A stretch of 64,000 bases of DNA from Microgenomates group bacterium. GTDB taxonomy: Bacteria > Patescibacteriota > Microgenomatia > Daviesbacterales > UBA10151. Location: NCBI GenBank assembly GCA_041659805.1, contig JBAZXP010000001.1, forward strand, positions 384,589 through 448,588, given 5' to 3'. The notes beneath the pieces were generated by a model that saw nothing but the letters and a program-made list of their open reading frames with translations, searched no databases and was not told the DNA's origin. Of this stretch, positions 16,076 through 34,715 are shown piece after piece (the first letter of the stretch is position 1; the number at the start of each line of letters is the position of its first letter). A program made the position numbers and the translations under genes.

Positions 16076-16091
16076 AGCTGCGGGACTTGGA
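16076..16091. repeat. attL-like direct repeat (displaced tRNA-Gln 3'-end fragment)
   Basis: Identical to 33565-33580. Followed by a ~210 bp GC-richer non-coding stretch with hairpin CAGTCCACC-tttg-GGTGGACTG. Confidence 0.6.
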
Positions 16092-16305
16092 TAATACACC
16101 CAGTCCACCTTTGGTGGACTGTCGAACCCGCTTCACCACTGTGTGGAGCGCGTAATCCTCTGTCCAATAGTCCGTACCAAGTCCAAATGCCCCACAAAAG
16201 TGGGACTTTGTGCCTTTGCTGCCCGACGTATAAACAGTTCGTACTGCAATTAGCCTGGCTCGAACAATTAAGACAAGTATATCACCAAAGCGAGGAGGAA
16301 AAAGA

Positions 16306-16821
16306 ATGATATTTTCCTTCTGGAATTCTAAAGAATCTTCTGATTCATTGGTAAAATCTAAATTATTTGATGAAAACACTTTCTATGAAGCATTTATCAA
16401 AGACTTGAATAGATGCAAAGAAGAAGTAATTATTGAAAGTCCATATATTACTTGTAAACGGATGGATTTATTAGAATCCATATTTCAAAAACTGATGAAA
16501 CATGGAGTAAAAGTGTATATAATTACTCGTGACCCAAGAGAGCATGAGGAAAAGCTAGCAAGGCAAGCTGAGTTAGAGATTAGTATTTTTGAAGAGATGG
16601 GTGTACAAGTTTTACTATGTGCGGGGAATCATCATAGAAAATTAGCAATTCTGGATAGAAAAATATTGTGGGAAGGTAGCCTGAACATCTTGTCACAGAT
16701 GTACAGCCGTGAAATTATGCGAAGAATAGAAAGTGAAGCACTAACAAAGCAGATGTTTAATTTTTTGAATTTGGGTAAACTTACTAAGGAAAATTCTTTT
16801 ATAAAAAGGATGTTTTTATGA
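16306..16821 (+). CDS. phospholipase D-family (single HKD) nuclease, Nuc/BfiI-like
   Basis: 171 aa; HHRKLAILDRKILWEGSLN = HxK(x4)D(x6)GSxN PLD motif; GAGGAGG SD. Confidence 0.7.
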   Translation: MIFSFWNSKESSDSLVKSKLFDENTFYEAFIKDLNRCKEEVIIESPYITCKRMDLLESIFQKLMKHGVKVYIITRDPREHEEKLARQAELEISIFEEMGVQVLLCAGNHHRKLAILDRKILWEGSLNILSQMYSREIMRRIESEALTKQMFNFLNLGKLTKENSFIKRMFL

Positions 16822-17057
16822 GTGAAAGTAAAATACCTGAAGATTGGTTAAAGAAAAATGGCTATAAACTCAAAATAGTTTACAGCTACGCTGTCGTTAA
16901 TAAATTAAACATTAAATCAAAAGAGGAAGTATTAAAGATTCTCCAAGTAACTGATCCTGAAAACGCAAATGAAGAACAAGCTGAAATTTATTCAAAAATG
17001 TTGCAGTTATTTGGAAGTAGATTTAGAAAAACAATAGAAAAGAACTTAGTAGATTAA
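16818..17057 (+). CDS. hypothetical protein, translationally coupled to the PLD nuclease
   Basis: 79 aa; ATGA start/stop overlap with upstream gene. Confidence 0.4.
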   Translation: MSESKIPEDWLKKNGYKLKIVYSYAVVNKLNIKSKEEVLKILQVTDPENANEEQAEIYSKMLQLFGSRFRKTIEKNLVD

Positions 17058-17059
17058 AA

Positions 17060-17281
17060 TTATCCCTTTTTAGCCACGATTTTAAGACCAAGAACTTTAA
17101 GTATTCTTTCAAGGTTAGCAAAAGCTGGGTTAGATTCTCCTCTTTCTGTCATTGCATAAAAAGTTTCAGTGACTTTTGCTTCTTTTGCAACTTGAGCTTG
17201 AGTTAAGCCCTTCTTCTCTCGGGCTTCTTTTATCTGAGCTGCTAGCTTTGGATCTATCTTTTCTTTCTTATCAGTATTCAT
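17060..17281 (-). CDS. XRE-family helix-turn-helix transcriptional regulator
   Basis: 73 aa; KGLTQAQVAKEAKVTETFYAMTERGESNP Cro/C1-type HTH. Confidence 0.75.
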   Translation of the reverse strand: MNTDKKEKIDPKLAAQIKEAREKKGLTQAQVAKEAKVTETFYAMTERGESNPAFANLERILKVLGLKIVAKKG

Positions 17282-17384
17282 AAATATATTTATAGTATAG
17301 CACTTTCAGAACATAAAATAAACTATGGGTCAAACTTGAAAGAAGACTAGACAAAATTCTGCAAATTTTGATATATTATCAATA

Positions 17385-17528
17385 ATGAGTGACTTAAAAG
17401 AAGCAATCAAGCTTAAAGATCCTGAGAAGATAGCAGAAATAATCCTAGCTGGTTTTCAACAGCTTGATGAGGATCTAAAAGAACAAGCAAAGCTTAAGAA
17501 ATCATCAAAGTCAAAAAAGAAAAACTAA
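17385..17528 (+). CDS. small lysine-rich protein (47 aa), divergent from the XRE regulator
   Basis: ATG at 17385, MSDLKEAIKLKDPEK...KSKKKN; below ORF-track cut-off. Confidence 0.3.
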   Translation: MSDLKEAIKLKDPEKIAEIILAGFQQLDEDLKEQAKLKKSSKSKKKN

Positions 17529-19252
17529 AGCTCTATCTCATTCCCAAGAAGATCAGTAATAGTCCTTTTACGTTTTAATTTTCGTGGGTACTTTTCAAAA
17601 AATTCTTTGTTCTCTTCTACTAAATAAATCGTGCAATAACCTGTTCCATCTTCATATTTTAACTCTCTACCTTTCAAAATCCCTTGTCTTTCAAGTTTTC
17701 TAAGTGTGGAAGAATGCAAGCCGCACTCATCAGTTATTTTCCAACCTTGAAGCCAAATATCACTATTCTTTACAGCTTCATAAGGGATATTTCCTTTCTT
17801 TATGTTCATATGGCAATCAAAACAGGTAATCCCATCTAAAGTCCACCATATTTTCTTGCCAGGAGTAGATGATTTACAGATCATACAGGTATATGTTGCA
17901 TCTCCTTCGAGAAGAAATCCCTCTGGTTCATGTTCTAGCCTTTTTTTCCTTGTATTTTCAATTCCTTGCATTTCTCCAGAAAGCCTAACTAACTGAATTA
18001 AATGATAGTTTCCATACTTCATTCTTGCTTCATAGTCTATTTTTGAAGGCTTTTCTTCTTTTTTCTCACCTGTAAGCTCAAAAAAATCTTCCTCTCGTTC
18101 ATATCCTTTCAATCTTCCTGATAAATAACCAAGACGATAGAATACTCCCTCAGTCATCAAACGCCAGTTTGTTCCCTCAAGTCTATCCTTTATAAGTTTT
18201 TGAATCGTGGATACACTAATATTTTCACTGCGTGAAGAATCACTATCTTGAATACTAAAAGGGACAATGACATATTGTCCTATCTCTGGTTTATCAAACG
18301 ACAGCTTAACAAAATGTTCTTTTTCAAGCACCTCATTTAAAAGCTTTTCCAATTCTAAGATAGTAAGTTTTTTCAAACCAGCAACTTTTTGGTAAGCGAA
18401 ACTATCGTATTTTTGTAATTCTTCCTGGTATATTTGCGGGGCAATTTTAAAGGCCTCAATGTACTCAAAACTTTCTTTTCCTTCCTTATCAGAGCAAAAT
18501 TCTTCTCGATATTCCTCCAAAAGCTTTTTATCTTCTTCCTCCTGTTTTTTCCTCTCAGCTCTATGTTTTTCTAAATCATCTTCTGTAGTTTCTGTAAAAC
18601 CACATGATGCACAAGTTGTTTTCCATATAATTTTCTCCTTACTTTCCTTAACAACAGACATATCAATTTCAGCCTTACATTTAGGACATAACTGTGGTTT
18701 TGTTTCATATTCTTTTCCATCTTCATAAATCCATCGTTTCTTTTTACAGTTGGAACAATTAAACAGGAACATCATGTGTAATTGTTTGTCTAATGTATCA
18801 AGGTGTTTAATCGTGACTTTCATTAACTTTTTACAGTCAGGACAGATTATTTCTTGAGGTTCAGGGGTATTATCGTATTTATCTTGTTCTATACTGTCAG
18901 AATCCATCCATTCTTGTATTGCCTCTTCTTTATGACTATATCTTTGGCCTTTTATTTGATAAAGCTCTTGGTTGGTAATCCAACCAAACCATTTTGCCTT
19001 ATCTCCAGCAGAAAACTTTTTAGATTCTTCACTATTCAGGTGTTTTTCATAAGTTTTTGTCCATGACTCAATAGCCTCAAGACATCTTTTAATCGTAAAT
19101 AAGTCATATCGGTCTATATAATGCTGTTTATCTTTAAGGTATTCCATATATCTATCTTTGATTATAATATTCTTCCTCGTTATCTTCATCTGATCCGTCA
19201 AGAAAAGATAAAAATTCATAATCAGAACCGAACTCTTTCCATTTAATTCCAA
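17525..19252 (-). CDS. multi-zinc-ribbon protein with C-terminal MerR/excisionase-like HTH (hypothetical)
   Basis: At least four CxxC...CxxC pairs (CPDC..CSNC, CPKC..CASC, CMIC, CFDC). C-terminal ITDECGLHSSTLRKLERQGILKG HTH. Track start overlaps the upstream XRE gene, so true start is probably MEYLKDK near 19147. Confidence 0.5.
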   Translation of the reverse strand: MELNGKSSVLIMNFYLFLTDQMKITRKNIIIKDRYMEYLKDKQHYIDRYDLFTIKRCLEAIESWTKTYEKHLNSEESKKFSAGDKAKWFGWITNQELYQIKGQRYSHKEEAIQEWMDSDSIEQDKYDNTPEPQEIICPDCKKLMKVTIKHLDTLDKQLHMMFLFNCSNCKKKRWIYEDGKEYETKPQLCPKCKAEIDMSVVKESKEKIIWKTTCASCGFTETTEDDLEKHRAERKKQEEEDKKLLEEYREEFCSDKEGKESFEYIEAFKIAPQIYQEELQKYDSFAYQKVAGLKKLTILELEKLLNEVLEKEHFVKLSFDKPEIGQYVIVPFSIQDSDSSRSENISVSTIQKLIKDRLEGTNWRLMTEGVFYRLGYLSGRLKGYEREEDFFELTGEKKEEKPSKIDYEARMKYGNYHLIQLVRLSGEMQGIENTRKKRLEHEPEGFLLEGDATYTCMICKSSTPGKKIWWTLDGITCFDCHMNIKKGNIPYEAVKNSDIWLQGWKITDECGLHSSTLRKLERQGILKGRELKYEDGTGYCTIYLVEENKEFFEKYPRKLKRKRTITDLLGNEIEL

Positions 19253-19454
19253 GCGACTTTCTAATTTTATCTAATGTACGCATACCAATGCTACCAGTTT
19301 TTCCACGCTCGATTTTACCGTAATAATTGGGATTTAAATCAGCTCCTACAGCAACATCTACCCTTGTTCTCTTCTGTTCTAATCTTATTTGTATTATTCT
19401 TTGGCATAATAATTTTTGCCTTTTGAGTCCCTGTTCAGAAATTCTATGTTTCAT
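19152..19454 (-). CDS. XRE-family HTH transcriptional regulator
   Basis: 100 aa; RIIQIRLEQKRTRVDVAVGADLNPNYYGKIERGKTGSIGMRTLDKIRKSLGI. Confidence 0.65.
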   Translation of the reverse strand: MKHRISEQGLKRQKLLCQRIIQIRLEQKRTRVDVAVGADLNPNYYGKIERGKTGSIGMRTLDKIRKSLGIKWKEFGSDYEFLSFLDGSDEDNEEEYYNQR

Positions 19455-19510
19455 GAAGGGAATTATAAAAGAGTTTTCTAAAAAATGACGTACTTTTATG
19501 AATAGTTACT

Positions 19511-22045
19511 TTGGCTATCTTAAATATAGGAACTTTGCTAGAATTGAACCAGAATATGTCAAAAATACCATTTAGTGTATCAGCTAGAACCGCAAGATTA
19601 ATAGGAAGGGAAAATGTCAGTAATGCAGAAGGTGCAATAATTGAATTAGTTAAGAACGCTTATGATGCTGATGCAAGTACATGTATAGTTTTTTTTAAAA
19701 AGGATTTTAGCGGAATTCCTGAGCAACTATCTATACAAGAATATACTCAAATCTCTACAAAGCAAACTTTTAAGGAAATAAAAGATTGCTACGAAAAAAA
19801 TAATGAGGGATACCAACTTAAAACCCTAATTGGCGATAAAACAGAGGTTTTATCTTCTTTTTTTAATTCGTTGTGTGAAATTTATATCATAGACAATGGG
19901 ACGGGTATGACACGAAATGTGCTTGAAAATCAATGGATGATGATAGGAACAGACAATAAATTGGAGAACTATATATCAAAAAAGAAACGTATACAAACAG
20001 GAGCCAAGGGAATTGGAAGGTTTGCGCTCGATAGGCTTGGATCTTTTTGCGAGGTGCTTACTAAATCTGAAGATTCTTCAGAAGGGTATAAATGGGCTGT
20101 AAATTGGGAGAATTTTGAAAAGAAAAACACAGATATAGGTAAGATTTATGCGGAATTAGAAGTGGTTCAAAAATTTAGTAGCGACTCTTTGTCATTTTTC
20201 AAAAAAACAGAGAATGAAGTAATTATGCCTTTATTGGGAAAATTTGAGCATGGAACCATATTGAGAATTAAATCATTGAGCGATACATGGAATTCTGAAA
20301 GCATCACTAATATTTATCATGTTTTAGAATCATTAACTCCCCCTGGAACATTTCAGGAATTTAAAATGTTTGTTTTTAATTCTGAAGATTTAAATGCTTT
20401 TGGAGAAGTTAAAAACTTTATTAATGATGATTTTGATTACCAAGTTAATGCAACTTTTAATTCTGAAAAACAACTTAATATAAAGATCTCAAGACGTGAG
20501 TTTGATTACAAAAAAATTGATAAAAAGCTTTTCTTACAAAAAGAAATGCAAAAATCTCCTTATACCGAAGAGGATTTTAAAAAAGGCTATTTTTTAATAA
20601 AAATGGATATCCATAAATTATTACCTGGGGGACTAAACGAATATATACTTAATAATTTAGGGCCTTTTGAATTTAATTTCTACTTCATTAAGCGTCAAAC
20701 TACTAACGAAGATAGGGAGGTTTTTTCTTTTAGAGATTTCAACCAAGCGCGAAGAGCAGAATGGTTAGATAGATCAAGTGGAATTAAAATTTTTCGAGAC
20801 AATTTTAGAATTAGGCCCTACGGAGAGCCAAAAGGATCAACATATGATTGGTTGGGATTAGACATGCGGGCTGCTAAAAGCCCTGCTGGATTTGCTCAAA
20901 GAATTGGGCAATGGCATGTTAGATCATACCAAGTGGCCGGTGAAGTTAATATTTCTAGGATAACTAATATCTATTTTGATGATAAATCTAGTAGAGAAGG
21001 TTTACAAGAAAATGCCTACTTTAAAGTATTCAAAAATATTTTAAATGAAATAGTTGCACTTTTTGAAAGAGATCGAGAATACATAGGAATAAACATGAAA
21101 AGTTTTTCCAAGAAAAATAATGAAGAAGAAAAAACCAAAGAGGAAGCTCATGAAATTGCAGAAATGATAACCTCAACGCCCTCATCTCCACAACAGTCAT
21201 TGGATATTGATCCACAAAGTCTAAAGCAACAACTAGAAACTGTTTCTAAAGGATTTAAAATTAAGGAAAAAGAGCAAGAAGAATTATTGACTGAAGCAAA
21301 AATGCTTCGTACGTTAGCTAGTTCAGGTTTATTAGTAGCTACATTTGCTCATGAATTAAGACAGTTAGGAGGAACCTTATCCCGAAGAGTAGATTTACTC
21401 GAGCAATGCCTAGAAGGTGTTATAGATAAGAGTAAATTAGCTTCATTGCCAACCCATTTAGATCCATATAAAAGATTGCAAAGATTAAGAGATGATGACT
21501 TGAAACTTAAGAATTGGATAGACTTATCAGTAAACACATTACAAAGAAATAAAAGGGATCTAATTAAGATAAATCTAACTAAATATTTATCTGAATATAT
21601 CGAATATGTAAATAACATAGTAAAATTCAAAGAAGCACATATAGAATTTAAAAGTACATCTGATGACATAGAAATAAAAGTTTTTCCAATAGATATGGAC
21701 AGTATATTTAATAATTTGCTTGCAAATTCAATTGCAGGATTTCTTCGTAAAGATGCACCTAATGAAAGAAAAATTAGTATAAATATATCGGCTACAACTA
21801 ATAACGTTATCATCGAATATCTCGATAGCGGCCCAGGTTTAGATTCTTCAATTCCTTACCCAGAAAAAATTTATGATTTGTTTTTTACTACTAAAATAAA
21901 TGAGGTAGGAGAAAAAATAGGTACAGGTTTAGGTATGTGGATAGTAAAATCTATTATTGAAGAGTATGAAGGTAGTATAAATATAACAAAAGTACGCCCT
22001 GGATTCGGTATTAAAATGGAAATCCCTAAACATATAAGCAAATAG
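19511..22045 (+). CDS. GHKL-ATPase / sensor histidine kinase fusion protein (N-terminal MORC/HATPase_c_3-like ATPase + C-terminal HisKA H-box and HATPase_c)
   Basis: 844 aa. N-terminal Bergerat motifs ELVKNAYDADAS (N-box), IIDNGTGM (G1), GAKGIGRFALDRLG (G2). C-terminal ATFAHELRQ (H-box), FNNLLANSIAG (N), YLDSGPGLD (G1), GTGLGMWIVKS (G2). TTG start at 19511; alternative ATG at 19556. Confidence 0.7.
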   Translation: MAILNIGTLLELNQNMSKIPFSVSARTARLIGRENVSNAEGAIIELVKNAYDADASTCIVFFKKDFSGIPEQLSIQEYTQISTKQTFKEIKDCYEKNNEGYQLKTLIGDKTEVLSSFFNSLCEIYIIDNGTGMTRNVLENQWMMIGTDNKLENYISKKKRIQTGAKGIGRFALDRLGSFCEVLTKSEDSSEGYKWAVNWENFEKKNTDIGKIYAELEVVQKFSSDSLSFFKKTENEVIMPLLGKFEHGTILRIKSLSDTWNSESITNIYHVLESLTPPGTFQEFKMFVFNSEDLNAFGEVKNFINDDFDYQVNATFNSEKQLNIKISRREFDYKKIDKKLFLQKEMQKSPYTEEDFKKGYFLIKMDIHKLLPGGLNEYILNNLGPFEFNFYFIKRQTTNEDREVFSFRDFNQARRAEWLDRSSGIKIFRDNFRIRPYGEPKGSTYDWLGLDMRAAKSPAGFAQRIGQWHVRSYQVAGEVNISRITNIYFDDKSSREGLQENAYFKVFKNILNEIVALFERDREYIGINMKSFSKKNNEEEKTKEEAHEIAEMITSTPSSPQQSLDIDPQSLKQQLETVSKGFKIKEKEQEELLTEAKMLRTLASSGLLVATFAHELRQLGGTLSRRVDLLEQCLEGVIDKSKLASLPTHLDPYKRLQRLRDDDLKLKNWIDLSVNTLQRNKRDLIKINLTKYLSEYIEYVNNIVKFKEAHIEFKSTSDDIEIKVFPIDMDSIFNNLLANSIAGFLRKDAPNERKISINISATTNNVIIEYLDSGPGLDSSIPYPEKIYDLFFTTKINEVGEKIGTGLGMWIVKSIIEEYEGSINITKVRPGFGIKMEIPKHISK

Positions 22046-22047
22046 AT

Positions 22048-22683
22048 ATGAGTAATTATAATATTGCCTTTATAGATGACGATCAGGGTGTTATAGACGA
22101 TTTCCTTGTTACTGCTGGGAATAAATCGGTAGATGTTCAAACCTTTGAATTATCTCCTGATAAAGAAAGTTTGGTTGATGAAATCGCAAAATCTAATGTT
22201 GATGCGATAGTCATTGATTTTCATCTTGCCGATACTCGACCAAATATCAAATATGATGGCGCAGAGGTAATGAATCAATTGGAAGAGGTGACTTACAATA
22301 TCCCAAAGTTTATTTTTACTGCTTTTTCGTCTGCAGCTGAAGATAAAAGTAATGATATTAATATAGTTTATGAAAAAGAAGGAGATTTTGGGCCATTTAT
22401 TGATAAAGTAATAAAACAAATCGATAAATACAAACATCGATTGGAAGAGTATCAAGAGGAATTGATGAGTTTAATAGAGAAGAGTAAAACTACCAAATTA
22501 AATGTAGAAGAGGAAGAGCGCGCTTTAGAATTAGATAATATTATCGAGAAGTCTTTGAACAAAAGACTTTCCTTACCTGATAGCCTCAAAAAACCTTCAA
22601 CTATTTCAACGCTCGACAAACTTCTTTCAGAGGCAGAACAAATAGTAAAGGAGTTACAAAATCGTAACAATGCAAAATCTTAG
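22048..22683 (+). CDS. stand-alone response-regulator receiver (REC) domain protein with C-terminal coiled-coil
   Basis: 211 aa; acidic pair FIDDDQ, phospho-acceptor-like Asp in AIVIDFHLAD, T in FIFTAFS, conserved K near 109. Start 3 nt after upstream stop. Confidence 0.6.
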   Translation: MSNYNIAFIDDDQGVIDDFLVTAGNKSVDVQTFELSPDKESLVDEIAKSNVDAIVIDFHLADTRPNIKYDGAEVMNQLEEVTYNIPKFIFTAFSSAAEDKSNDINIVYEKEGDFGPFIDKVIKQIDKYKHRLEEYQEELMSLIEKSKTTKLNVEEEERALELDNIIEKSLNKRLSLPDSLKKPSTISTLDKLLSEAEQIVKELQNRNNAKS

Positions 22684-23260: not shown

Positions 23261-23383
23261 TATTTTCAAGTAAAAAGACTGCAGACTTTGTAGGAAAATT
23301 ATAGTATGATTAAAAAGTGCTGCCTAGTTTTATATTAAAAACCTGATTAATTAAAAGGGGTAAATGAGACTGCAGAGTTATTA

Positions 23384-25240: not shown

Positions 25241-25243
25241 AGT

Positions 25244-26595: not shown

Positions 26596-26619
26596 ATTTT
26601 TAGTATAGCAGAGGAGACA

Positions 26620-27132
26620 TTATTTCATCTCACTGGCGAGAACGTAATCTTCATTTTCAGTAGGAGGTTCCCAATTCTTTAAGTAATTGTCTAACATTTC
26701 TCTACTAATCTTAAAGGAGTCTTTCCCGAGATTATTGTTTCTTCCCATAACCCTCTCTCGTATCGCTTCGATTGGTGTATCAAGATAGTACATCACCAAT
26801 TTAGCACCAATTGCCTCTGTCCTTCTTCTCATTTCATCTCGTGTTTCTTTTTCCCAAAATCCCTCATCCATGATGACATCAATACCTTTCTCTGCGAGAT
26901 AAAATGCAACATCCCTTGATAAATCAATGATTTTACGATCCCACTGGGCATATCCTTCAATTGTAGGATCGTTTCCAATTAAACGAATTGACCATTCATC
27001 CTTCACGATTCTCACTGCACCAGTTTTTTCTTCTAGCTTCTTTGCAAAAGTAGTTTTACCAGCACCGATAAATCCACAAATTATATAAACGATAGGTTTT
27101 CTTTTCATAAAGGTATTGTACCAAAGATTCAT
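26620..27132 (-). CDS. P-loop kinase (AAA_33 / zeta-toxin-like fold)
   Basis: 170 aa; Walker A ICGFIGAGKTTFAKKL; start may be MKRKP at 27108. Confidence 0.6.
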   Translation of the reverse strand: MNLWYNTFMKRKPIVYIICGFIGAGKTTFAKKLEEKTGAVRIVKDEWSIRLIGNDPTIEGYAQWDRKIIDLSRDVAFYLAEKGIDVIMDEGFWEKETRDEMRRRTEAIGAKLVMYYLDTPIEAIRERVMGRNNNLGKDSFKISREMLDNYLKNWEPPTENEDYVLASEMK

Positions 27133-27772: not shown

Positions 27773-27779
27773 TTCAATA

Positions 27780-27817
27780 AACCTACCGTTTGTTGAAAAA
27801 CAGGCGGTAGGTTTTAC
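27780..27817. terminator. bidirectional intrinsic terminator between convergent genes
   Basis: ACCTACCGtttgttgaaaaacaggCGGTAGGTTTT; T-run on plus, A-run (T-run on minus) on the other side. Confidence 0.6.
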
Positions 27818-28620
27818 TCTGCCTCTTCCCAAATATCTGTGGTTACTCCTTGTTTCCTTACTTCATCTTCTAAAGCAAAACTAATATGTATATCTTCTAA
27901 ATCCTCATCGGCTAGTAATCTTTTAGTCATTCTCTTTGTGGAAATAAGTAACTCTTTTGTTTGGCAAATAAAAAGAATCCGTGGAGCTGATTTAAAATGT
28001 TCCATCCATTCATAATTTAATAAAAACGAAATATAATCTTTGACTCTTTTTAGGATCTGATACTTGGGAAGAGTTGTATTAAGTATCTCTAATAAATGAT
28101 AAGTTTTGGTTGTTTTCTTCTGCTTGGTAAATATGAGTTGAGTAGTAAGTTCACAAAGAAAATTATATGGAGAATCTGGACTTATATAGTCACTTGTCGT
28201 TACAAAATCATAGGATACACCATTCTTGCTTTGGTTCTTTAGATTAAGACACATATCGGCCAAGAATTGGCAATCTGCTATAAAAGCTTCTGACCTATTT
28301 TTCTCCTGGTAGATTTTTTGTAGTAGCTTTTTATCAAACCCCTCTTGGGCTTTTAGAAAATTGATACCATTTAGACTTAGGTAATAGATAGCGGGTATAG
28401 TATTTTTTCCAAATGTTTCACCATCGTAAATTCTTTTAAGATAGTCTTTTTGTGTTAGGTCTTTGAGCCAGAGGTTAATTGTTTTTTTGTCTTTATGATT
28501 GAGGAGTTTTTGGATTTGAATTCTATTGATGAATCTAAATTGATAGGTAAGTTTTATTGTTTCTTGTTGTTTGTTAGTTATTTTAGGTAGTGTCATTATT
28601 GTATATATTGCCAACCCCAC
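27814..28620 (-). CDS. replication-relaxation family protein (Replic_Relax, wHTH N-terminus)
   Basis: 268 aa; N-terminal LPKITNKQQETIKLTYQFRFINRIQIQKLL resembles the Replic_Relax wHTH; adjacent to coupling ATPase. Start probably MTLPK at ~28596. Confidence 0.55.
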   Translation of the reverse strand: MGLAIYTIMTLPKITNKQQETIKLTYQFRFINRIQIQKLLNHKDKKTINLWLKDLTQKDYLKRIYDGETFGKNTIPAIYYLSLNGINFLKAQEGFDKKLLQKIYQEKNRSEAFIADCQFLADMCLNLKNQSKNGVSYDFVTTSDYISPDSPYNFLCELTTQLIFTKQKKTTKTYHLLEILNTTLPKYQILKRVKDYISFLLNYEWMEHFKSAPRILFICQTKELLISTKRMTKRLLADEDLEDIHISFALEDEVRKQGVTTDIWEEAE

Positions 28621-28708
28621 CTACTCCGATATTTATAAAGGTAGGAGCAATAATAATTTAGAATTTAGGCTCAAAATGCAATATTTTTTGCCCTCGCTCT
28701 TGAGGGTA

Positions 28709-31588
28709 TTATATACCATGTGATTTAGCAGTTTTCTTAGCTGGCTTTTCTTTAGTTTCTCCTCCAAAAAGCTGCTTTAGCGTTTCTTCCACTTCAGCTT
28801 TTGGAGTACCATACTTTTTCCTCGTATTGGTAATAATTTCCTCTGCTGTTTTCTCACTGCCTTTAACATCTAGAGGTATTGTTTGTCCTGAAAATGCATC
28901 CTCACTATTGTCCGTTGAAACTTTCATATAGAAATGAAATGGTGGCAAGTTAACAATCTCGCCTTTTTCAACTTCTGGCTGCATAAAAGGTAAGATAAAC
29001 TGTTCGTCGTCTGGACTACCCTTTAAAGAAATAATTGTTCCAGCATTTCCAGCAATTATCTGAACCAATTTCAGGTCATCAATTTGAGCAATATTTTGAT
29101 GTGAAGGAATTAAAGAGATATGGAATTTTCTTCCTTCGCTCATAATCTCTGAAAACTGAGGAGTAGCAAAGTTTTGAAATTCATCAATATAGAGAAAGAA
29201 ATCACGTCTTTGTTTTTCTGGTATCTTTGTTCTTTGATAAGCTGCCATCCAAATGAGTGAAGTCACAAGAGTACCAAAGAAAGAACTTTGATCTTCTCCT
29301 AAATCACCTTTTGAAAGATTAATTAATAATATCTTTCCTTCATCCATAATCTGCTGGATACTGATAGTACTTTTTCCTTGTAACAAAATATGCCTGGACA
29401 TTTTGGTGGTAATAAAATGTCCTAACCGATGAGTTAACGGTGCAGTAACAGAAGATAATTGCATAGTTCCTAAAAGAGAAAATTCTTTTTGCCAAAACTG
29501 TTTTAAGACTGGGTCAGAAAGAGTTGAGGCAACTTGTTTCTGATATTTCTTTTCTGTTAATAACCGTTGCAAGGTAAAAAGGCTTGGGTTAGGGGTTTGT
29601 AATGCTGTAAGAATTGCATTTTGTAGAATATGCTCCATTCTTGGGCCCCAATATTCTTTTGCAGTTAATTTAGCAAATATTGCTATAACAGAACTCGTGA
29701 TCCATTCGTCTGCATCCTCTTTACTACTAAATGTAATGCCAGGAGACAAAATATTAAGTCCGAGAGGAAAGTCCCTGTCTGATGGATCAAAGTAAATAAC
29801 ATCTTTCCTTCGCTCTTTAGGTATAACTTGCAGAAGCTCTTTTACCATATCTCCATGTGGGTCAAGCACACAAAGACCTTTACCACTTGCCATATCCTGA
29901 TAGATAGCGTTTGTTAAAAGGGTTGTCTTACCCATACCAGTTTTACCAATAACATACATATGCTTTTGTCTTTGCGCCAAAGTTAAGCCAATCGGGCTTA
30001 CTTCTCCACCATACTCATTTGCACCGAGAATCACATCAAGGTTAGTGGTGCTTTTTTTCATAGATAAAGGAGATGGTAATTCTCGTGTTCTACTTTTTAC
30101 TAATCCTTCTGTCTTGGTAAGATCAGTGTAGGGGAAGTGGTAAATATCCGATATTTCGGACACGGAAAGAATTGGGTTTTGGTTAAATATAAAACTATTA
30201 GATAGTAACCTTCTTTTAAATTGATTTAGTCGTAGGTTCATAGTTAGTGATCTAGGAAGCAAACTACTCTTTGTAGTAATTAATTGATACGTGCTGTTCA
30301 TAGCGCCAAAAGAGGCAATTAGGCCGGATACTCTACTATCAAACTCTTCAGGTTCCTTTGTAATAACAAGCATCCTTATAGATGTTTCAAATAACGGTTG
30401 ATCTATTTTTTCTTTTACGATCTGTAATAACTCTTGTTCATAAGGGTTTAATAATTGCTGGTTAGCGGCTGCATTTTCTATTGCCTTTGAAGTCATTAAA
30501 AAAGGGATCACTTTGCTATTTGGATCCATAAAAGCTAAAAGCATGCTATATACAAACATCCATACAAACTTAACAACCGAAAATATTACTTTAAGGAAAA
30601 ATGTGATAACAAATACACCTGGTAAATCTGCAATCTTTTGCAAGATGTTTCCATTTAAGAGAGGAGTAAGTGGTTGTCTTTGATATATTATTTTTCTTAA
30701 CTCATTCATTTTATTAATTAGAGTTTTGTGAGTACCATTTAGAACTGGCGTAGTTATGATTTGAAATGAGATTAATTCATGATCGTTGAGTTTGGTCATA
30801 TTGCCAGTTAAATAAGAGATTGGATCATGTTCATCAAGCGTTTTTTGCCTAGAAAGTGGTAATGCAAAAGGTGCAGCAAGTTTAAACTCTACAACACCTT
30901 GGAACATTTCTCCTTCTGAATCTTCATTTAAATAATCATCTATTTCTTTAGTCTTTATTCCAGGCAAATAAGACAAAAGATTTCTTCTGATTGTATTAGC
31001 GTTTCTAGAAGAGGTAGAAAGAATATATCTGATGCCTTGGTCTTTAGTGGAAACAATTTCAAGACCAAAGATATTTTTTTGTCCTAATAATCGTTCTTTG
31101 AAATTATTTTGTTTGGCAAGTGTATGTAACAAGGTATAAAGCTGCTGGGTTGCGTAGGCTGATTTACTTGTATCTGAAGGGAAAGTTAATTCAAAAAAGG
31201 TTTTTGGTTGTACTGGTAAAAATCTTGCAAATATTAAAGGGAATATTACTTGTAAGAACGATATCGAAGCCTTTATAAGAAAATACAATAGCAGTAGGCT
31301 TAAAATAAGCCATAAAGGCCAAAACATAACAAAGATACTAGATAATAAGGGATGAGCATTAACAGAGTCACTTAGAGGAGAACTTGAGGCAGTAAGGGCA
31401 TAGTACATATCTAATCTTGATTGAACAGGAAACCATGATTCTGGTAAAGGAAATTTAAGAAGGACTAGCAGAACAATATCATTAAAAATAGGCATTTGGC
31501 CGTTCTGCACTTGATGAAGTAATTGTAACTGCTGAATTTCAGTTGCTGTTTTAGGAATAAATGATGGTATAGGACTACTCGTTTCCAT
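28709..31588 (-). CDS. TraG/TraD/VirD4-family type IV coupling protein-like ATPase (membrane-anchored)
   Basis: 959 aa; N-terminal TM helices; Walker A VIGKTGMGKTTLL followed by CVLDPHGD; Walker B-like LYIDEFQNF. Confidence 0.65.
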   Translation of the reverse strand: METSSPIPSFIPKTATEIQQLQLLHQVQNGQMPIFNDIVLLVLLKFPLPESWFPVQSRLDMYYALTASSSPLSDSVNAHPLLSSIFVMFWPLWLILSLLLLYFLIKASISFLQVIFPLIFARFLPVQPKTFFELTFPSDTSKSAYATQQLYTLLHTLAKQNNFKERLLGQKNIFGLEIVSTKDQGIRYILSTSSRNANTIRRNLLSYLPGIKTKEIDDYLNEDSEGEMFQGVVEFKLAAPFALPLSRQKTLDEHDPISYLTGNMTKLNDHELISFQIITTPVLNGTHKTLINKMNELRKIIYQRQPLTPLLNGNILQKIADLPGVFVITFFLKVIFSVVKFVWMFVYSMLLAFMDPNSKVIPFLMTSKAIENAAANQQLLNPYEQELLQIVKEKIDQPLFETSIRMLVITKEPEEFDSRVSGLIASFGAMNSTYQLITTKSSLLPRSLTMNLRLNQFKRRLLSNSFIFNQNPILSVSEISDIYHFPYTDLTKTEGLVKSRTRELPSPLSMKKSTTNLDVILGANEYGGEVSPIGLTLAQRQKHMYVIGKTGMGKTTLLTNAIYQDMASGKGLCVLDPHGDMVKELLQVIPKERRKDVIYFDPSDRDFPLGLNILSPGITFSSKEDADEWITSSVIAIFAKLTAKEYWGPRMEHILQNAILTALQTPNPSLFTLQRLLTEKKYQKQVASTLSDPVLKQFWQKEFSLLGTMQLSSVTAPLTHRLGHFITTKMSRHILLQGKSTISIQQIMDEGKILLINLSKGDLGEDQSSFFGTLVTSLIWMAAYQRTKIPEKQRRDFFLYIDEFQNFATPQFSEIMSEGRKFHISLIPSHQNIAQIDDLKLVQIIAGNAGTIISLKGSPDDEQFILPFMQPEVEKGEIVNLPPFHFYMKVSTDNSEDAFSGQTIPLDVKGSEKTAEEIITNTRKKYGTPKAEVEETLKQLFGGETKEKPAKKTAKSHGI

Positions 31589-31732
31589 AATATTTAGAGT
31601 ATAACTTTTGAGCAGTCTTCAGGACAAGTATATCATAAAGTTAGGCTCAGAACACCCTTTTTACCTCTTGACAACTGTAAATATATTTATATATACTGTA
31701 AATATAATTACAGTTGAGAATAAAAATTAAGT

Positions 31733-32062
31733 ATGGAAAAGAATGAGATACAAGTATTAAACAGTCCAATTATCTCAAATGAAGATGTGCTTAACTTACC
31801 TAATTTATCCTCCAACTCCCAATTTAATCCTCAAGGAACTTATGATCAAATAAATCAAATATTCATTGACCAAGACCAAAGAGAAAAGGCAATTTTAGAA
31901 GCAAGAGAAATTCTGGGAGATTCGGCCAAGGACTTAACAGATGAACAGGTTTTTGACTTAGTTAACGAAATGCAATATTTAGTAGACAGTTGGTTAGAAG
32001 AGTACGAGAGAAAAGTCTTTGACGGTAAAACATTAAATGAATTATTAAATCTTGAACCATGA
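31733..32062 (+). CDS. small acidic hypothetical protein immediately upstream of, and overlapping, the serine recombinase (candidate directionality/accessory factor)
   Basis: 109 aa; 4 nt overlap with recombinase start. Confidence 0.35.
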   Translation: MEKNEIQVLNSPIISNEDVLNLPNLSSNSQFNPQGTYDQINQIFIDQDQREKAILEAREILGDSAKDLTDEQVFDLVNEMQYLVDSWLEEYERKVFDGKTLNELLNLEP

Positions 32063-33675
32063 ACATACAAGATATTAAAATCAATCCACTTTTTAATACT
32101 ACTTTAGCATTACCTAAAAAAGCAGTTATTTATATAAGAGTGTCTTCAGAAGAACAAGTAGAAAATTTCTCATTAAAAACTCAGGAAGAAATTTGCAGGA
32201 GAGATGCAAAGTATAAAGGATATGAAGTAGCACAAGTTTTTAGAGAAGAGGGTAAATCTGCAAAAAATATTATAGGTAGACCAGAACTACTTAAGATGAT
32301 TGAATTTTGCAGAAAGAATAAAAAAGAGGTTAGAGGAGTATTTGTATATAGATTAGATAGAATATCAAGACAAACCTCGGATTATTTAGCTCTTAGAAAA
32401 AGATTCTATGACATGGGCATAGCCTTAATTTCAGCATCAGAACCTACAGGAAATTCACCTACGGAAAAGCTATTAGAGACAGTTTTAGCAAGTTTTGCTC
32501 AACATGATAACGATGTAAGGTCAGAAAGAACTAAAAATGGCATGCGGGCAAGATTTTTAATGGGTCTTGTGACAAACCATGTACCTTTGGGCTATATAAA
32601 TCAGTCAGGGCATGCAACGAAAGATCCTAAAACCTTTGACTTATATAAAAAAGCTTGGGATTTAATGACTACTGGAAATAAAAGTTTAAAAGAGATGCAA
32701 GTACTTATGCAAGAATGGGGTCTTCCTGTTGCTGGTCCGCAAACAGTTCACCATATGTTTAGAAACAAATTCTATATGGGCATATTAACCTCAAAAAGTT
32801 ATCCAGAAGAAGTAAGAGGCCAGCATACTCCAATGGTCACAAAAGAACAGTTCTACAAAGTACAAGCAATTTTGGACGGAAGAAACCTCAACCCCAATAA
32901 AATGCCTAAATATACTAGAGATAATCCAGATTTTCCTCTCAGAAGAATCATTTGTTGTGGTAAGTGTGGTACTCCCTTTACAGGGGGATGGAGCAAGTAT
33001 CATCAATTTGCCTATTACTTTTGTAGAAGGAGATGCATATACAAATCTATACCAGTTGGAGAACTACATAACGAATTATCAAAACTGCTAACAAAAGTCA
33101 GTCCTTCAGAACAAGGGATAGAGATGTACTGTAAATTGCTTCTAAAAACATACGGTCAGCAGTTTAAAAAGTTAAACAAGACAAAAAAAGCATCTGACGA
33201 GGAAATTAAAAAGCTACAAGCTTTAAGACAAACTTTAGTTGAGAAGAATCTGGCAGGAACCTATTCTGATGATATCTTCAAGGAACAAAACGCCATTATA
33301 GAGGAGAAACTAACAGCAGCTTTTGAGGCACAAAGTAACGAGTTAATTGATAAATATAATATTGATGCAATTACTAGCTTTATAGAAGATAAGCTCTCAA
33401 ATTTAGCACAAACATACTCAACATCAAGCCTAACTCAGCTTCGCTTCCTTCTCAGTACGATATTTCTGCCAGGATTCTCTTGGGGCTATCCAGGCATTTC
33501 GTACCAAGGGTTTAGCCCCGTATATCAAGCTATTCATGATGCTGGCGAACCAGACATCAAAGTCGGCTGCGGGACTTGGATTCGGACCAAGATAGACAAC
33601 TTCAGAGGCTGTCGTCCTACCATTAGACGATCCCGCATTACATTTACGGAATCCCGTAATGTTAACGTATTTTAG
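32059..33675 (+). CDS. large serine recombinase (resolvase catalytic domain + recombinase domain + zinc ribbon)
   Basis: AVIYIRVSSEEQ (catalytic Ser region), YRLDRISR, zinc ribbon CCGKCGTPFTG...CRRRC. ORF has no in-frame stop until 33675 and reads through the att repeat and tRNA-Gln, so its C-terminal ~35 codons are probably not genuine. Confidence 0.8.
   Translation: MNIQDIKINPLFNTTLALPKKAVIYIRVSSEEQVENFSLKTQEEICRRDAKYKGYEVAQVFREEGKSAKNIIGRPELLKMIEFCRKNKKEVRGVFVYRLDRISRQTSDYLALRKRFYDMGIALISASEPTGNSPTEKLLETVLASFAQHDNDVRSERTKNGMRARFLMGLVTNHVPLGYINQSGHATKDPKTFDLYKKAWDLMTTGNKSLKEMQVLMQEWGLPVAGPQTVHHMFRNKFYMGILTSKSYPEEVRGQHTPMVTKEQFYKVQAILDGRNLNPNKMPKYTRDNPDFPLRRIICCGKCGTPFTGGWSKYHQFAYYFCRRRCIYKSIPVGELHNELSKLLTKVSPSEQGIEMYCKLLLKTYGQQFKKLNKTKKASDEEIKKLQALRQTLVEKNLAGTYSDDIFKEQNAIIEEKLTAAFEAQSNELIDKYNIDAITSFIEDKLSNLAQTYSTSSLTQLRFLLSTIFLPGFSWGYPGISYQGFSPVYQAIHDAGEPDIKVGCGTWIRTKIDNFRGCRPTIRRSRITFTESRNVNVF
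33565..33580. repeat. attR-like direct repeat = 3' end of tRNA-Gln
   Basis: GCTGCGGGACTTGGAT identical to 16076-16091. Confidence 0.6.
33567..33637 (-). tRNA. tRNA-Gln (anticodon CUG)
   Basis: Manual fold of the minus strand: acceptor UGCGGGA/UCCCGCA, D-arm GUCU-AAUGGUA-GGAC, anticodon arm ACAGC-CUCUGAA-GUUGU, variable CUAU, T-arm CUUGG-UCCGAAU-CCAAG, discriminator G; CCA not encoded. Confidence 0.7.
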
Positions 33676-33701
33676 CATTTTAAGGTTGGAGATTAAAGTT
33701 T

Positions 33702-33965: not shown

Positions 33966-34009
33966 AACGTGATTATATGCTTAATATAAAATAGAGTAAA
34001 ATAGTAAAA

Positions 34010-34634: not shown

Positions 34635-34715
34635 TGAAAAACCTATTAGTTAAAACAGGTAGAAAAAATATATCATCACTTGTGTAAATGGTCAACTGTG
34701 TCATAATATATCACT

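What the first reader, a model, noticed from the sequence alone, without database searches (positions are those of the whole stretch)
16076..33580. ~17.5 kb integrative element inserted in tRNA-Gln(CUG) with exact 16 bp direct repeats
The 16-mer GCTGCGGGACTTGGAT occurs at 16076-16091 and 33565-33580. The second copy is the acceptor/T-arm 3' end of a hand-folded minus-strand tRNA-Gln (33567-33637). That is the classic signature of site-specific integration into a tRNA 3' end.

Everything between the repeats looks like mobile-element content: a large serine recombinase right at the tRNA-proximal end, a TraG/VirD4-like coupling ATPase plus Replic_Relax protein (mobilisation module without a T4SS, so IME-like), XRE switches, and a cargo of nuclease, methyltransferase and NTase genes. 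Flanks on both sides are housekeeping.

Such tRNA-targeted IMEs are poorly catalogued in small-genome CPR-like bacteria.
Basis: seen in the sequence. Interest (0 to 1): 0.8.

Follow-up and report, generated by a model that had tools for sequence, protein, structure and literature searches.

The report
Serine-integrase element splitting its own gene

Summary
The 16-mer repeat and the tRNA-Gln(CUG) gene are real; the repeat coordinates are off by one base. The interior is mobile-element DNA: a large serine recombinase (LSR), a VirD4-like coupling protein, a Replic_Relax protein, XRE regulators and defence-like cargo. The 16-mer is not the junction. A related metagenome contig without the element (L003) aligns to the window up to 16222 and again from 33566, overlapping only in GCTGC. 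The insert is therefore 16223-33570 (17,348 bp). The left 16-mer lies in a ~140 bp relic that L003 also carries.

The LSR reading frame crosses attR and runs antisense into the tRNA. Rejoining the two ends (attP) continues it in frame into a 27-residue tail encoded at the left end. That tail is conserved at the left ends of related elements and in two unintegrated homologues. It is in frame in 9 of 9 reconstructed pairs, and its third codon positions vary most.

In 66 of 79 related genome loci the LSR gene ends inside an antisense tRNA gene of at least 13 isotypes. A TTCGAAC-like motif, the antisense T-loop, lies 5 bp further from the core in attP than in attB, as in known LSR sites.

Verdict: a real tRNA-site integrative element and a new variant of a known kind. 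What the tail swap does is untested.

The parts
16077..16092 (+). Left copy of the 16-mer: a displaced copy of the tRNA-Gln 3' end. It lies outside the LSR-defined element and is part of an older relic.
   Evidence: Exact match to 33566-33581. L003 has the same arrangement of core copy, about 150 bp, then the tRNA, without the 17 kb element.
16093..16217 (-). Relic, now the 3' trailer of the tRNA. Its right-hand ~100 bp is conserved with L003 and forms the B arm of attB. It is GC-rich with hairpins.
   Evidence: BLASTN aligns window 16124-16222 to L003 465-562 at 88%. The fold z-score is -2.84. Rfam finds nothing, and no other fetched locus matches.
16218..16222 (+). attL core GCTGC, the crossover region.
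   Evidence: The two window-L003 alignments overlap only in these 5 bases. The identical core is at 33566-33570.
16223..16309 (+). P' arm of attP, which is also the detached 3' end of the LSR gene. It encodes PTYKQFVLQLAWLEQLRQVYHQSEEEKE followed by a stop. The TTCGTAC motif is at 16238-16244. The stop codon overlaps the start of the PLD gene.
   Evidence: In-frame continuation in the reconstructed attP. A tail profile finds homologous fragments at the left ends of other elements and in full-length P0043 and P0101. Codon-position pattern.
16306..16821 (+). PLD-family nuclease, the first gene of the element.
   Evidence: Pfam PLDc_2, E = 7.9e-13. The same pairing of tail fragment and PLD gene is seen in L083-L086.
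17060..17281 (-). XRE-type helix-turn-helix regulator.
   Evidence: Pfam HTH_3, E = 1.1e-13.
17525..19252 (-). 575-residue ORF with no family assignment; the real start may be further downstream.
   Evidence: No hit above threshold in Pfam, PADLOC or PHROGs.
19152..19454 (-). Second XRE-type regulator.
   Evidence: Pfam HTH_3, E = 3.2e-07.
19511..24667 (+). Cargo cluster: an 844-residue GHKL ATPase, a receiver-like protein, a PtuB-like HNH nuclease and an Eco57I/type II-like methyltransferase. Possibly a defence system.
   Evidence: Pfam. PADLOC: PtuB 4.9e-18 and MTase_II 3.2e-24.
24656..27132 (-). Cargo: an unknown 194-residue ORF, an AadA-like nucleotidyltransferase, a P-loop protein and an AAA_33/zeta-like kinase.
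   Evidence: Pfam AadA_C 8.6e-23 and AAA_33 3.9e-23.
27814..28620 (-). Replic_Relax protein, a candidate relaxase or replication initiator. It is part of the conserved right-end backbone of the family.
   Evidence: Pfam PF13814. The same gene lies next to the LSR in L083, L092, L176 and L113.
28709..31588 (-). VirD4/TraG-like coupling ATPase.
   Evidence: Pfam TrwB_AAD_bind and TraG-D_C. phrog_5156, E = 4.8e-66.
31733..32062 (+). Conserved 109-residue ORF overlapping the LSR start. A candidate accessory or directionality factor.
   Evidence: Its C-terminal ~60 residues are conserved in 7 loci, always immediately upstream of the LSR gene. No Pfam or PHROGs hit.
32059..33675 (+). Large serine recombinase gene in its integrated form (538 residues). 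Bases 32059-33570 belong to the element. The last 35 codons (33571-33675) are the antisense of tRNA-Gln and its upstream flank.
   Evidence: Pfam. Sequence matches to the solved A118, SPbeta SprA and TP901-1 integrases for homologue P0043. 1245 homologues.
33566..33570 (+). attR core GCTGC. It corresponds to the antisense of tRNA positions 70-73 plus one trailer base.
   Evidence: The same register holds in 9 attL/attR pairs.
33567..33637 (-). Intact tRNA-Gln(CUG), forming the B' arm of attB. Its antisense T-loop TTCGGAC is at 33581-33587.
   Evidence: ARAGORN, Rfam, motif position.

Best explanation
Window 16223-33570 is a 17,348 bp integrative, probably mobilizable element. A large serine recombinase (LSR) inserted it at the extreme 3' end of tRNA-Gln(CUG).

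Shown: the insertion breakpoints share only a 5 bp core, GCTGC. On the tRNA this is positions 70-73 plus one trailer base. The tRNA therefore stays intact and only its 3' trailer changes.

Shown: attP lies inside the 3' end of the LSR gene. In the circular form the gene encodes 532 residues and ends in a conserved helix-like tail (F/I-E-x-x-L-x-W-L-x-x-L-M/R-x-x-Y). In the integrated form the last 27 residues are replaced by 33 residues read from the antisense of the tRNA. The catalytic and DNA-binding domains are untouched.

Shown: this arrangement is the rule for a large LSR family in Patescibacteria, whose members target at least 13 tRNA isotypes.

Inferred: the enzyme reads the antisense T-loop (TTCGAAC-like) as the motif for its zinc-ribbon domain. 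The motif lies 16 nt from the core register in attB and 21 nt in attP. That matches the 5 bp offset which, from my own knowledge of the A118-type LSR model, distinguishes attP from attB. The acceptor stem would then set which tRNA is used.

Inferred: because the tail exists only in the excised state, the element makes state-specific integrase isoforms. In the circle, transcription can also continue from the LSR gene into the PLD gene. This could bias integration against excision or couple gene expression to excision.

Inferred: the coupling ATPase and the Replic_Relax protein let the circle be mobilized by a conjugative relative. One such relative, with type IV secretion genes, is seen in L083.

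The 16-mer at 16077 is a scar of an older event at the same tRNA.
For: Unoccupied site. L003 465-562 aligns to window 16124-16222 (88%) and L003 558-1706 aligns to window 33566-34694 (84%). The two alignments overlap only in GCTGC (sequence).

LSR identity.

The frame crosses attR, and in the reconstructed attP it continues as ...VGC-PTYKQFVLQLAWLEQLRQVYHQSEEEKE-stop.

Homologous tails occur in full-length homologues that have no adjacent tRNA (P0043/L102 and P0101/L101). They also occur as detached same-strand fragments 5-11 kb upstream of integrated LSR genes in L092-L097, L113, L124, L149 (twice), L159, L161 and L176, and at the left end of a second element in L083-L086.

The reconstructed attP is in frame in 9 of 9 pairs (with frames for the window, L092 and L124 read by hand from the printed sequences). 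By my arithmetic the chance of this is about (1/3)^9 = 5e-5.

Across 12 tails, outside the DNA motif, identity at codon positions 1/2/3 is 0.52/0.65/0.42, and one Trp is invariant.

In 66 of 79 genome loci an antisense tRNA overlaps the LSR 3' end.

Motif spacing is +21 in P' against +16 in B' in the pairs scored automatically, and the same by hand for the window, L092, L124 and L083b.

No tyrosine integrase and no phage structural genes were found in the interior.
Against: No circular junction or unoccupied site was found for this exact strain. The predicted 532-residue attP-form protein is not in the 15-billion-protein collection. The attP 22-mer is absent from the viral contigs.

L003 is a different species-level lineage (84% nucleotide identity) and is not syntenic to the left of the relic.

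The P and P' arms show little overall inverted symmetry. The crossover dinucleotide cannot be fixed: the only register that is non-palindromic in all pairs (antisense of positions 73-72) carries a mismatch in L092 attL.

AlphaFold places the tail as a low-confidence helix (pLDDT about 57) with no docking site, so nothing supports a particular role for it.

No recombination, excision or transfer has been tested.
Confidence: 0.8

Rival explanations
1. The element runs from one 16-mer to the other (16077-33581) and was inserted by recombination within a 16 bp identity segment at the tRNA 3' end, the classic duplicated-tRNA-end mechanism.
For: The 16-mer is exact, present only twice, and 0.04 copies are expected by chance. 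The right copy is the true tRNA 3' end.
Against: L003 carries a copy of the 16-mer, a ~150 bp segment and the intact tRNA with no element between them. The window diverges from L003 exactly at GCTGC. There is no tyrosine integrase in the interior. Nine related attL/attR pairs share only 5-10 bp cores, and loci L092-L097 have no copy of 10 bp or more of the tRNA end upstream. The conserved in-frame tail starts at 16223, not at 16093.
Confidence: 0.07
2. The tail is not a protein segment. The open frame across attP is incidental, and the conservation at the left end reflects only the recombinase-binding P' half-site or the ribosome-binding site of the next gene.
For: The first two tail codons are the DNA motif TTCGAA, conserved at all three codon positions. 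The terminal Glu codons overlap the GGAGG ribosome-binding site of the PLD gene. The AlphaFold confidence for the tail is low.
Against: Conservation extends about 40-65 nt from the core, beyond the reach of a usual LSR half-site of about 25 bp (my own knowledge). Third codon positions are the most variable and second positions the least (0.42 against 0.65), with synonymous Leu codons. The frame is preserved in 9 of 9 pairs. Uninterrupted genes with this tail exist (P0043, P0101).
Confidence: 0.1
3. The element is a fixed, no longer mobile island. The LSR and both att sites are intact by sequence, but excision no longer occurs.
For: No circular form was found. The three public assemblies that carry the left flank all show the occupied or ambiguous state. 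The P' motif is TTCGTAC, one base off the tRNA's TTCGGAC.
Against: The LSR frame, the tail frame, the small upstream ORF and both cores are all intact. Contig L002 from another sample stops at window 16213, five bases before the core, as expected at an assembly branch point. This last point is only suggestive.
Confidence: 0.3
4. The region is a prophage or a phage satellite rather than a conjugation-related element.
For: Large serine recombinases are common in temperate phages (my own knowledge). The coupling ATPase has a weak match to a terminase profile (phrog_2666, 4.6e-08).
Against: No capsid, portal, tail or lysis families were found in Pfam or PHROGs. The terminase match covers only the P-loop (residues 538-580). 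No relative was found in IMG/VR. Family members carry type IV secretion genes.
Confidence: 0.03

Closest known systems
Large serine recombinases / serine integrases (A118 Int, SPbeta SprA, TP901-1, Bxb1, phiC31)
   Same: The domain order is the same: resolvase catalytic domain, recombinase domain, then a zinc ribbon with a long coiled coil. The att sites are short with minimal shared cores. The outer motif lies 5 bp further out in attP than in attB.
   Different: The target is a tRNA gene rather than a protein-coding gene. Mageeney et al. 2020 (PMC7192596) state that serine-integrase use of t(m)RNA genes had not been reported before their 14 unverified cases, and the Durrant et al. 2022 LSR survey (PMC10083194) never mentions tRNA. 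Here attP also lies inside the integrase gene itself.
SSV1-type 'suicidal' integrases of archaeal viruses and plasmids
   Same: attP lies within the integrase gene, so integration partitions the gene, and the target is a tRNA gene (review PMC8371274).
   Different: Those are tyrosine recombinases. Their gene is split so that the enzyme is broken, and the review says such recombinases are found exclusively in archaea. Here the enzyme is a bacterial serine recombinase. Only a 27-residue C-terminal tail is exchanged, and all recognised domains remain on one ORF.
Integration-dependent immunity of mycobacteriophages such as BPs (Broussard et al. 2013; recalled from my own knowledge, not checked here)
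   Same: attP lies inside a coding region next to the integrase, so integration changes the C-terminus of a phage protein and the integrated and free states make different isoforms.
   Different: There the split gene is the repressor and the recombinase is a tyrosine integrase. The C-terminal change removes a degradation tag. No such tag is evident in this tail.
tRNA-site genomic islands and IMEs with tyrosine integrases (Islander-type islands; streptococcal IMEs)
   Same: Site-specific insertion at a tRNA 3' end that leaves the tRNA functional. The integrase gene is at the tRNA-proximal end. The mobilization genes come without a mating pore.
   Different: The recombinase family differs. There is no long duplicated tRNA fragment at the true junction (5 bp against 15-50 bp). 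The crossover is at the last acceptor bases rather than in the T or anticodon loop.
Tycheposons of Prochlorococcus (bioRxiv 10.1101/2020.12.28.424599)
   Same: Small tRNA-adjacent cargo elements in streamlined genomes. A minority (27 of 937) carry a large serine recombinase instead of a tyrosine recombinase.
   Different: The host phylum differs. Homology between the recombinases was not examined. No report there of attP inside the recombinase gene.

Membership tests
Large serine recombinase (serine integrase) | N-terminal resolvase-type catalytic domain with the conserved Ser/Arg motif | tested here: met
   PF00239, E = 5.2e-31, residues 22-169. R27, S29, R74 and R98 are among the invariant columns in 27 homologues. 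Homologue P0043 matches the TP901-1 and 3guv catalytic domains.
Large serine recombinase (serine integrase) | C-terminal recombinase domain plus a zinc ribbon with four Cys and an inserted coiled coil | tested here: met
   PF07508 and PF13408. C300, C303, C322 and C326 are invariant. The AlphaFold model of homologue P0043 has long helices at 345-392 and 398-418 after the ribbon strands. P0043 matches A118 Int 4kis and SprA 9dxh.
Large serine recombinase (serine integrase) | Short att sites sharing only a small core, with the outer motif 5 bp further out in attP than in attB | tested here: met
   Cores of 5-10 bp in 9 pairs. The TCGAAC-like motif is at +21 in P' and +16 in B'.
Large serine recombinase (serine integrase) | Catalyses attP x attB recombination with a 2 bp staggered cut | not testable with these tools
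   The central dinucleotide could not be fixed from sequence.
Classical tRNA-site island with a tyrosine integrase | Encodes a tyrosine (phage-type) integrase | tested here: not met
   No Phage_integrase hit in any of the 19 interior ORFs of 60 residues or more.
Classical tRNA-site island with a tyrosine integrase | The element is bounded by the tRNA gene and a displaced tRNA 3' fragment of about 15 bp or more | tested here: not met
   The 16-mer exists, but the element boundary defined against L003 is 126 bp inside it, and the junctions share only GCTGC.
Integrative mobilizable element (IME) | Own integration/excision module | tested here: met
   Intact LSR, attL and attR.
Integrative mobilizable element (IME) | Relaxase and/or coupling protein present, but no mating-pore (type IV secretion) genes | tested here: inconclusive
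   A coupling ATPase and Replic_Relax are present and no VirB4, pilin or PrgI-type hits were found. Four ORFs (575, 194, 135 and 79 residues) have no assignment, and Replic_Relax is not a proven relaxase.
Integrative mobilizable element (IME) | Excises and is transferred with a helper element | not testable with these tools
   A relative with type IV secretion genes exists in other genomes (L083). No helper was looked for in this genome.
SSV-type self-splitting ('suicidal') integrase | attP inside the integrase coding sequence | tested here: met
   The frame crosses attR. The in-frame conserved tail lies at attL. Uninterrupted homologues exist.
SSV-type self-splitting ('suicidal') integrase | Tyrosine recombinase of the SSV1 type | tested here: not met
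   The enzyme is a serine recombinase.
SSV-type self-splitting ('suicidal') integrase | Integration separates essential parts of the enzyme | tested here: not met
   Residues 1-505, which hold all the Pfam domains, stay on one ORF. Only the last 27 residues are exchanged.

The most novel reading that the evidence does not exclude
A large, previously undescribed clade of bacterial serine integrases is specialised for tRNA gene 3' ends and uses the universal T-loop as its zinc-domain motif. These integrases have placed attP inside their own gene, so that the free and integrated states make different isoforms. The conserved C-terminal helix, present only in the free state, would act as a built-in state sensor. 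It could favour integration or block re-excision while present, and leave the tail-less integrated isoform, together with the conserved small upstream protein, competent for excision. This would be the first self-splitting recombinase gene outside archaea and outside the tyrosine family. It would also offer a natural scaffold for retargeting integrases to tRNA genes of any organism.
Probability: 0.3. Interest if true: 0.85.

Novelty: new variant of a known kind. Interest (0 to 1): 0.7.

Why it matters
tRNA genes are regarded as the territory of tyrosine integrases. A 2020 survey called serine-integrase use of tRNA genes unreported and in need of proof (PMC7192596). A 2021 review states that recombinases which split their own gene occur only in archaea (PMC8371274).

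This locus and about 70 related loci show a whole serine-integrase family in Patescibacteria that does both. The att-site logic is readable: T-loop as the outer motif, acceptor stem as the specificity region, crossover at the last tRNA bases.

That gives a testable rule for how one integrase scaffold spread over at least 13 tRNA isotypes. It also gives a candidate mechanism for state-dependent control without a classical directionality factor, and a practical warning. Island finders that rely on long tRNA-fragment repeats will misplace or miss these elements, and gene callers will report integrase genes with spurious tRNA-encoded tails.

These elements also appear to be a main vehicle of cargo in the small genomes of these bacteria: defence genes, metal and redox genes, and surface proteins.

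Tried and rejected
Searching for the HD-domain flank protein in GTDB genomes found no relative.

Searching IMG/VR for LSR relatives and for the attP 22-mer found nothing.

An exact look-up of the MBL-fold flank protein gave no record. Contigs carrying the RpiB flank protein from the two other samples break inside the MBL-fold gene, so they say nothing about the site.

The exact attP-form protein of this element is not in the protein collection.

Rfam on the relic and left junction gave only chance-level hits. I considered a tmRNA-like, tRNA-like or intron RNA for the GC-rich 16093-16217 segment and dropped these ideas. ARAGORN and Rfam find nothing, and the T-arm pairing is absent.

The automatic longest-common-substring search for cores often locked onto the shared TCGAAC motif, or onto GGGACTT in the window, instead of the true core. 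The cores for the window, L092 and L124 were set by hand.

The inverted-repeat symmetry of the att arms is near random expectation.

I tried three registers for the crossover dinucleotide. None is both non-palindromic in all pairs and free of an attL/attR mismatch.

The AlphaFold model gave no confident placement of the tail, so I did not run a fold search.

I also considered that the relic is an older attL of the same LSR family. I rejected this because the expected motif is absent at +21 and at +16 in the window's copy. L003's copy looks like a decayed tRNA fragment (21 of 25 bases, by eye).

Full report
OBSERVATION

There are no other copies even with two mismatches, and shuffles give 0.04 expected. 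ARAGORN finds a single tRNA in the 64 kb window, tRNA-Gln(CTG), on the minus strand at 33565-33637. Rfam confirms it at 33567-33637 with 56.3 bits. The right 16-mer covers one trailer base, the discriminator, the 3' acceptor strand and part of the T arm (sequence).

- PLD nuclease, 16306-16821
- two XRE regulators
- an 844-residue GHKL ATPase
- an HNH nuclease
- an Eco57I-like methyltransferase
- an AadA-like nucleotidyltransferase
- an AAA_33/zeta-like kinase
- Replic_Relax, 27814-28620
- a 959-residue TrwB/TraG-D-type ATPase, 28709-31588
- a 538-residue large serine recombinase (LSR) at 32059-33675 with Resolvase, Recombinase and Zn_ribbon_recom domains

The flanks are housekeeping genes: NUDIX, glycosyltransferase and HD hydrolase on the left; MBL-fold hydrolase, RNase T, RpiB and Rpe on the right. 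GC content hardly differs: 0.330 inside against 0.346 and 0.361 outside.

WHERE THE ELEMENT REALLY ENDS

A search for relatives of the right-flank MBL-fold protein in metagenomes returned L003. Its MBL protein is 83% identical to the window's. L003 has the same small ORF and the same tRNA-Gln(CTG), but no LSR.

L003 also carries a second copy of the 16-mer, 150 bp downstream of the tRNA. BLASTN gives two alignments:
- L003 465-562 to window 16124-16222, 88% identity
- L003 558-1706 to window 33566-34694, 84% identity

These overlap in L003 only at 558-562, which is GCTGC. Relative to this unoccupied site the insertion is therefore window 16223-33570, 17,348 bp, flanked by a 5 bp repeat (16218-16222 and 33566-33570).

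It sits in a segment that exists in L003 without the element.

The three sites read:
- attL: ...gtgcctttGCTGCccgacgtataaacagTTCGTACtgc
- attR: ...catcaaagtcgGCTGCgggacttggaTTCGGACcaag
- L003 attB: ...gtgccttGCTGCgggacttggaTTCGGACcaag

THE RECOMBINASE GENE CROSSES THE JUNCTION

The LSR frame does not stop inside the element. It runs through attR and 105 nt into the antisense of the tRNA and beyond. Joining 33570 to 16223 gives the circular junction. The frame then continues as ...DIKVGC-PTYKQFVLQLAWLEQLRQVYHQSEEEKE-stop, a 532-residue protein. The stop codon overlaps the ATG of the PLD gene, and the GGAGG ribosome-binding site lies in the Glu codons.

IS THE TAIL REAL?

(a) Of the 120 closest homologues, nearly all diverge right after a conserved ...SPxYQxIxD...G. 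They continue with peptides such as xxxIRT, LLYR or LYQLSY, which are translations of antisense tRNA T arms and D arms. A few instead end with tails like the window's. P0043 ends ...NASYFELTLEWLMELMQLYQSEEIKA. P0101 ends ...SALYIEPALTWFTSLMEFYQNVDISMN. Their contigs have no tRNA next to the gene.

(b) A profile built from four tails finds same-strand fragments upstream of integrated LSR genes in L092-L097, L113, L115, L124, L149 (two), L159, L161 and L176. It also finds one directly in front of a PLD gene at the left end of a second element in L083-L086.

(c) In the window, L092, L113, L124, L149a, L149b, L159, L161 and L176, joining attR to attL at the shared core keeps the tail in the LSR frame. 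That is 9 of 9 pairs (frames for the window, L092 and L124 were read by hand from the printed sequences). By my arithmetic the chance is about 5e-5.

(d) Across 12 tails, the 13 codons beyond the DNA motif have identities of 0.52/0.65/0.42 at codon positions 1/2/3. Leu codons vary synonymously and one Trp is invariant. The first two codons, TTC GAA, are conserved at all three positions, as expected for a DNA site.

(e) AlphaFold2 on P0043 with 68 homologues gives a confident LSR body (mean pLDDT 84). The tail is a helix at 501-524 behind a disordered linker, at pLDDT of only about 57.

I conclude that attP lies inside the LSR gene. Integration exchanges a conserved 27-residue tail for tRNA-encoded residues, and all recognised domains remain intact.

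THE FAMILY

A scan of GTDB species genomes with an LSR alignment gave 80 loci. They come from Daviesbacteria, Levybacteria, Roizmanbacteria, Gottesmanbacteria, Woykebacteria, Berkelbacteria, Nomurabacteria and unnamed Patescibacteria.

In 66 of the 79 loci with a C-terminal match, ARAGORN finds a tRNA gene on the opposite strand overlapping the 3' end of the LSR ORF. The isotypes are Glu, Gln, Leu, Phe, Pro, Lys, Gly, Ser, Arg, Tyr, Asp, Asn and His. Of the 13 loci without a tRNA, five run off the contig end and two stop within 15 nt of it.

The closest relatives (P0004, P0006) sit at tRNA-Gln(TTG).

The conserved backbone is Replic_Relax, then a small ORF, then the LSR at the tRNA-proximal end. 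The small ORF (109 residues in the window) is conserved in its C-terminal 60 residues and always overlaps the LSR start. It has no family assignment.

Cargo varies from element to element:
- defence-like genes in the window (PtuB-like HNH and a type II methyltransferase)
- a P-type ATPase in L083
- thioredoxin, DsbD and disulfide-reductase genes in L113
- surface proteins in L176

One relative carries VirB4-like, TraC-like, PrgI and pilin genes (L083). The window's element has none. The family therefore includes conjugative members, and the window's copy is IME-like. No phage structural genes are present.

SITE LOGIC

The shared cores are 5-10 bp and always lie in the same register: one trailer base plus tRNA positions 73-70 in antisense.

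A TCGAAC-like motif starts 16 nt from the register start in the tRNA arm, where it is the antisense T-loop. It starts 21 nt from the register start in the P' arm. This holds in the pairs scored automatically (L149a, L149b, L161, L113, L159). By hand it also holds in the window, L092, L124 and the L083 attL. In L176 the P' motif is degenerate (CTTGAAC).

A 5 bp outward shift of the zinc-domain motif in attP relative to attB is the feature that distinguishes the two sites in the A118-type model of LSR site recognition. That statement rests on my own knowledge of Rutherford and Van Duyne's work, not on a check made here. I therefore infer that the T-loop is the zinc-domain motif and that the acceptor stem gives specificity.

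The crossover dinucleotide is not settled. The antisense of positions 73-72 is the only register that is non-palindromic in all pairs, and it makes CGAAC-N16-CT-N16-GTTCG symmetric in the window's attP. However, L092 attL has a mismatch at position 73. Overall arm symmetry is weak.

THE 16-MER

The left copy is best read as a displaced tRNA 3' fragment left by an earlier, different integration at the same tRNA. L003's copy extends to 21 of 25 matches with the tRNA (by eye), like a decayed tRNA fragment. Such long fragments are typical of tyrosine integrases.

The ~100 bp next to the tRNA is conserved between the window and L003. It folds into hairpins (z = -2.84), with two compensatory changes in one stem. 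It now serves as the B arm. Its origin remains unexplained, and nothing else fetched matches it.

LITERATURE

- Mageeney et al. 2020 found 14 of 297 serine-integrase islands at t(m)RNA genes. They wrote that such use "has not been reported previously" and needs proof (PMC7192596).
- Durrant et al. 2022 catalogued 6,207 LSRs by protein target genes and never mention tRNA (PMC10083194).
- Hackl et al. note that 27 of 937 tRNA-site elements in Prochlorococcus carry an LSR.
- Badel et al. 2021 state that recombinases which disrupt their own gene are exclusively archaeal (PMC8371274).
- Five further full-text searches found no description of this family. Subscription journals are not covered, so absence is not proof.

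LIMITS

No circle or unoccupied site was found for this strain. The one hint is that contig L002 from another sample ends five bases before the core. The unoccupied site comes from another species. No function of the tail has been tested.

VERDICT

The finding is a real integrative element at a tRNA gene. It exemplifies an undescribed, widespread design: a tRNA-targeting serine integrase whose own gene spans attP. I rate it a new variant of a known kind, interest 0.7.

Noticed in passing
window 16077-16217; L003 391-556: About 140 bp lies between a displaced 16 bp copy of the tRNA-Gln 3' end and the true junction. The right ~100 bp is 88% conserved with L003, GC-rich (48%) and hairpin-forming, with two compensatory changes. 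The left part and the chromosomal flank are unrelated between the two genomes. Its origin is unknown: it may be the scar of an older element, possibly of tyrosine-integrase type.
   Followed up: partly
window 16290-16312; L083 10310-10335: The stop codon of the detached LSR tail overlaps the ATG of the PLD nuclease gene (ATGA), and the GGAGG ribosome-binding site lies in the tail's Glu codons. In the circular form the LSR and PLD genes would be one translationally coupled unit, which integration breaks.
   Followed up: partly
L149 1650-1800 and 6470-6620: Two attL-like sites lie upstream of one LSR. Each sits at the 3' end of an OmpR-type response-regulator-like ORF, within a 148 bp duplication of 90% identity. 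One core is 10 bp and the other 5 bp. This suggests accretion or replacement of elements at one tRNA-Pro site.
   Followed up: partly
L115 1343-1504: An isolated fragment encodes the last ~20 residues of the LSR body joined to an intact tail, that is, an attP-type junction. It lies 8.5 kb upstream of the integrated LSR gene and may be the remnant of a tandem copy.
   Followed up: no
L083 10128-17366 (also L084-L086): A second family member starts about 3 kb from the first, next to tRNA-Gly(GCC). It has a tail fragment, a PLD gene and an XRE gene at its left end, then an SduA_C protein and type IV secretion genes (VirB4-like, TraC-like, PrgI, pilin, M23 peptidase). This is a likely conjugative relative or helper.
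   Followed up: partly
L004 1040-2586: A much more distant LSR (23% identity) also converges on the 3' end of a tRNA-Gln(CTG) gene. tRNA targeting may therefore extend beyond this clade.
   Followed up: no
L114 182-2587 (protein P0048, 658 residues and longer): The LSR frame reads through tRNA-Glu and fuses in frame with a downstream glycosyltransferase gene. This gives a chimeric 'protein' in databases, an annotation artefact that this architecture produces.
   Followed up: no
window 19511-24667: The cluster of GHKL ATPase (two HATPase regions), receiver-like protein, PtuB-like HNH nuclease and type II-like methyltransferase resembles a defence system, but it matches no complete PADLOC system.
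   Followed up: partly
window 25244-27132: An AadA-like (aminoglycoside-type) nucleotidyltransferase sits next to two P-loop kinase-like genes, one of them zeta-toxin-like. This may be a resistance or toxin module in a Patescibacteria element.
   Followed up: no
L002 position 1 (= window 16213): A contig from an independent sample (SRR6484324), identical over the left flank, ends five bases before the attL core. This is where an assembly graph would branch if occupied and unoccupied sites co-exist.
   Followed up: partly
window 12000-15000: GC falls to 0.29 over the region with the PMT_2 glycosyltransferase gene and neighbouring small ORFs. This is lower than inside the mobile element.
   Followed up: no
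L105-L183 record titles: Many contigs that carry this Patescibacteria-type LSR and have tRNA neighbourhoods like the named Patescibacteria loci are titled 'uncultured Gammaproteobacteria' or 'Pseudomonadales' in their public records. These look like placeholder or wrong taxonomic labels.
   Followed up: no
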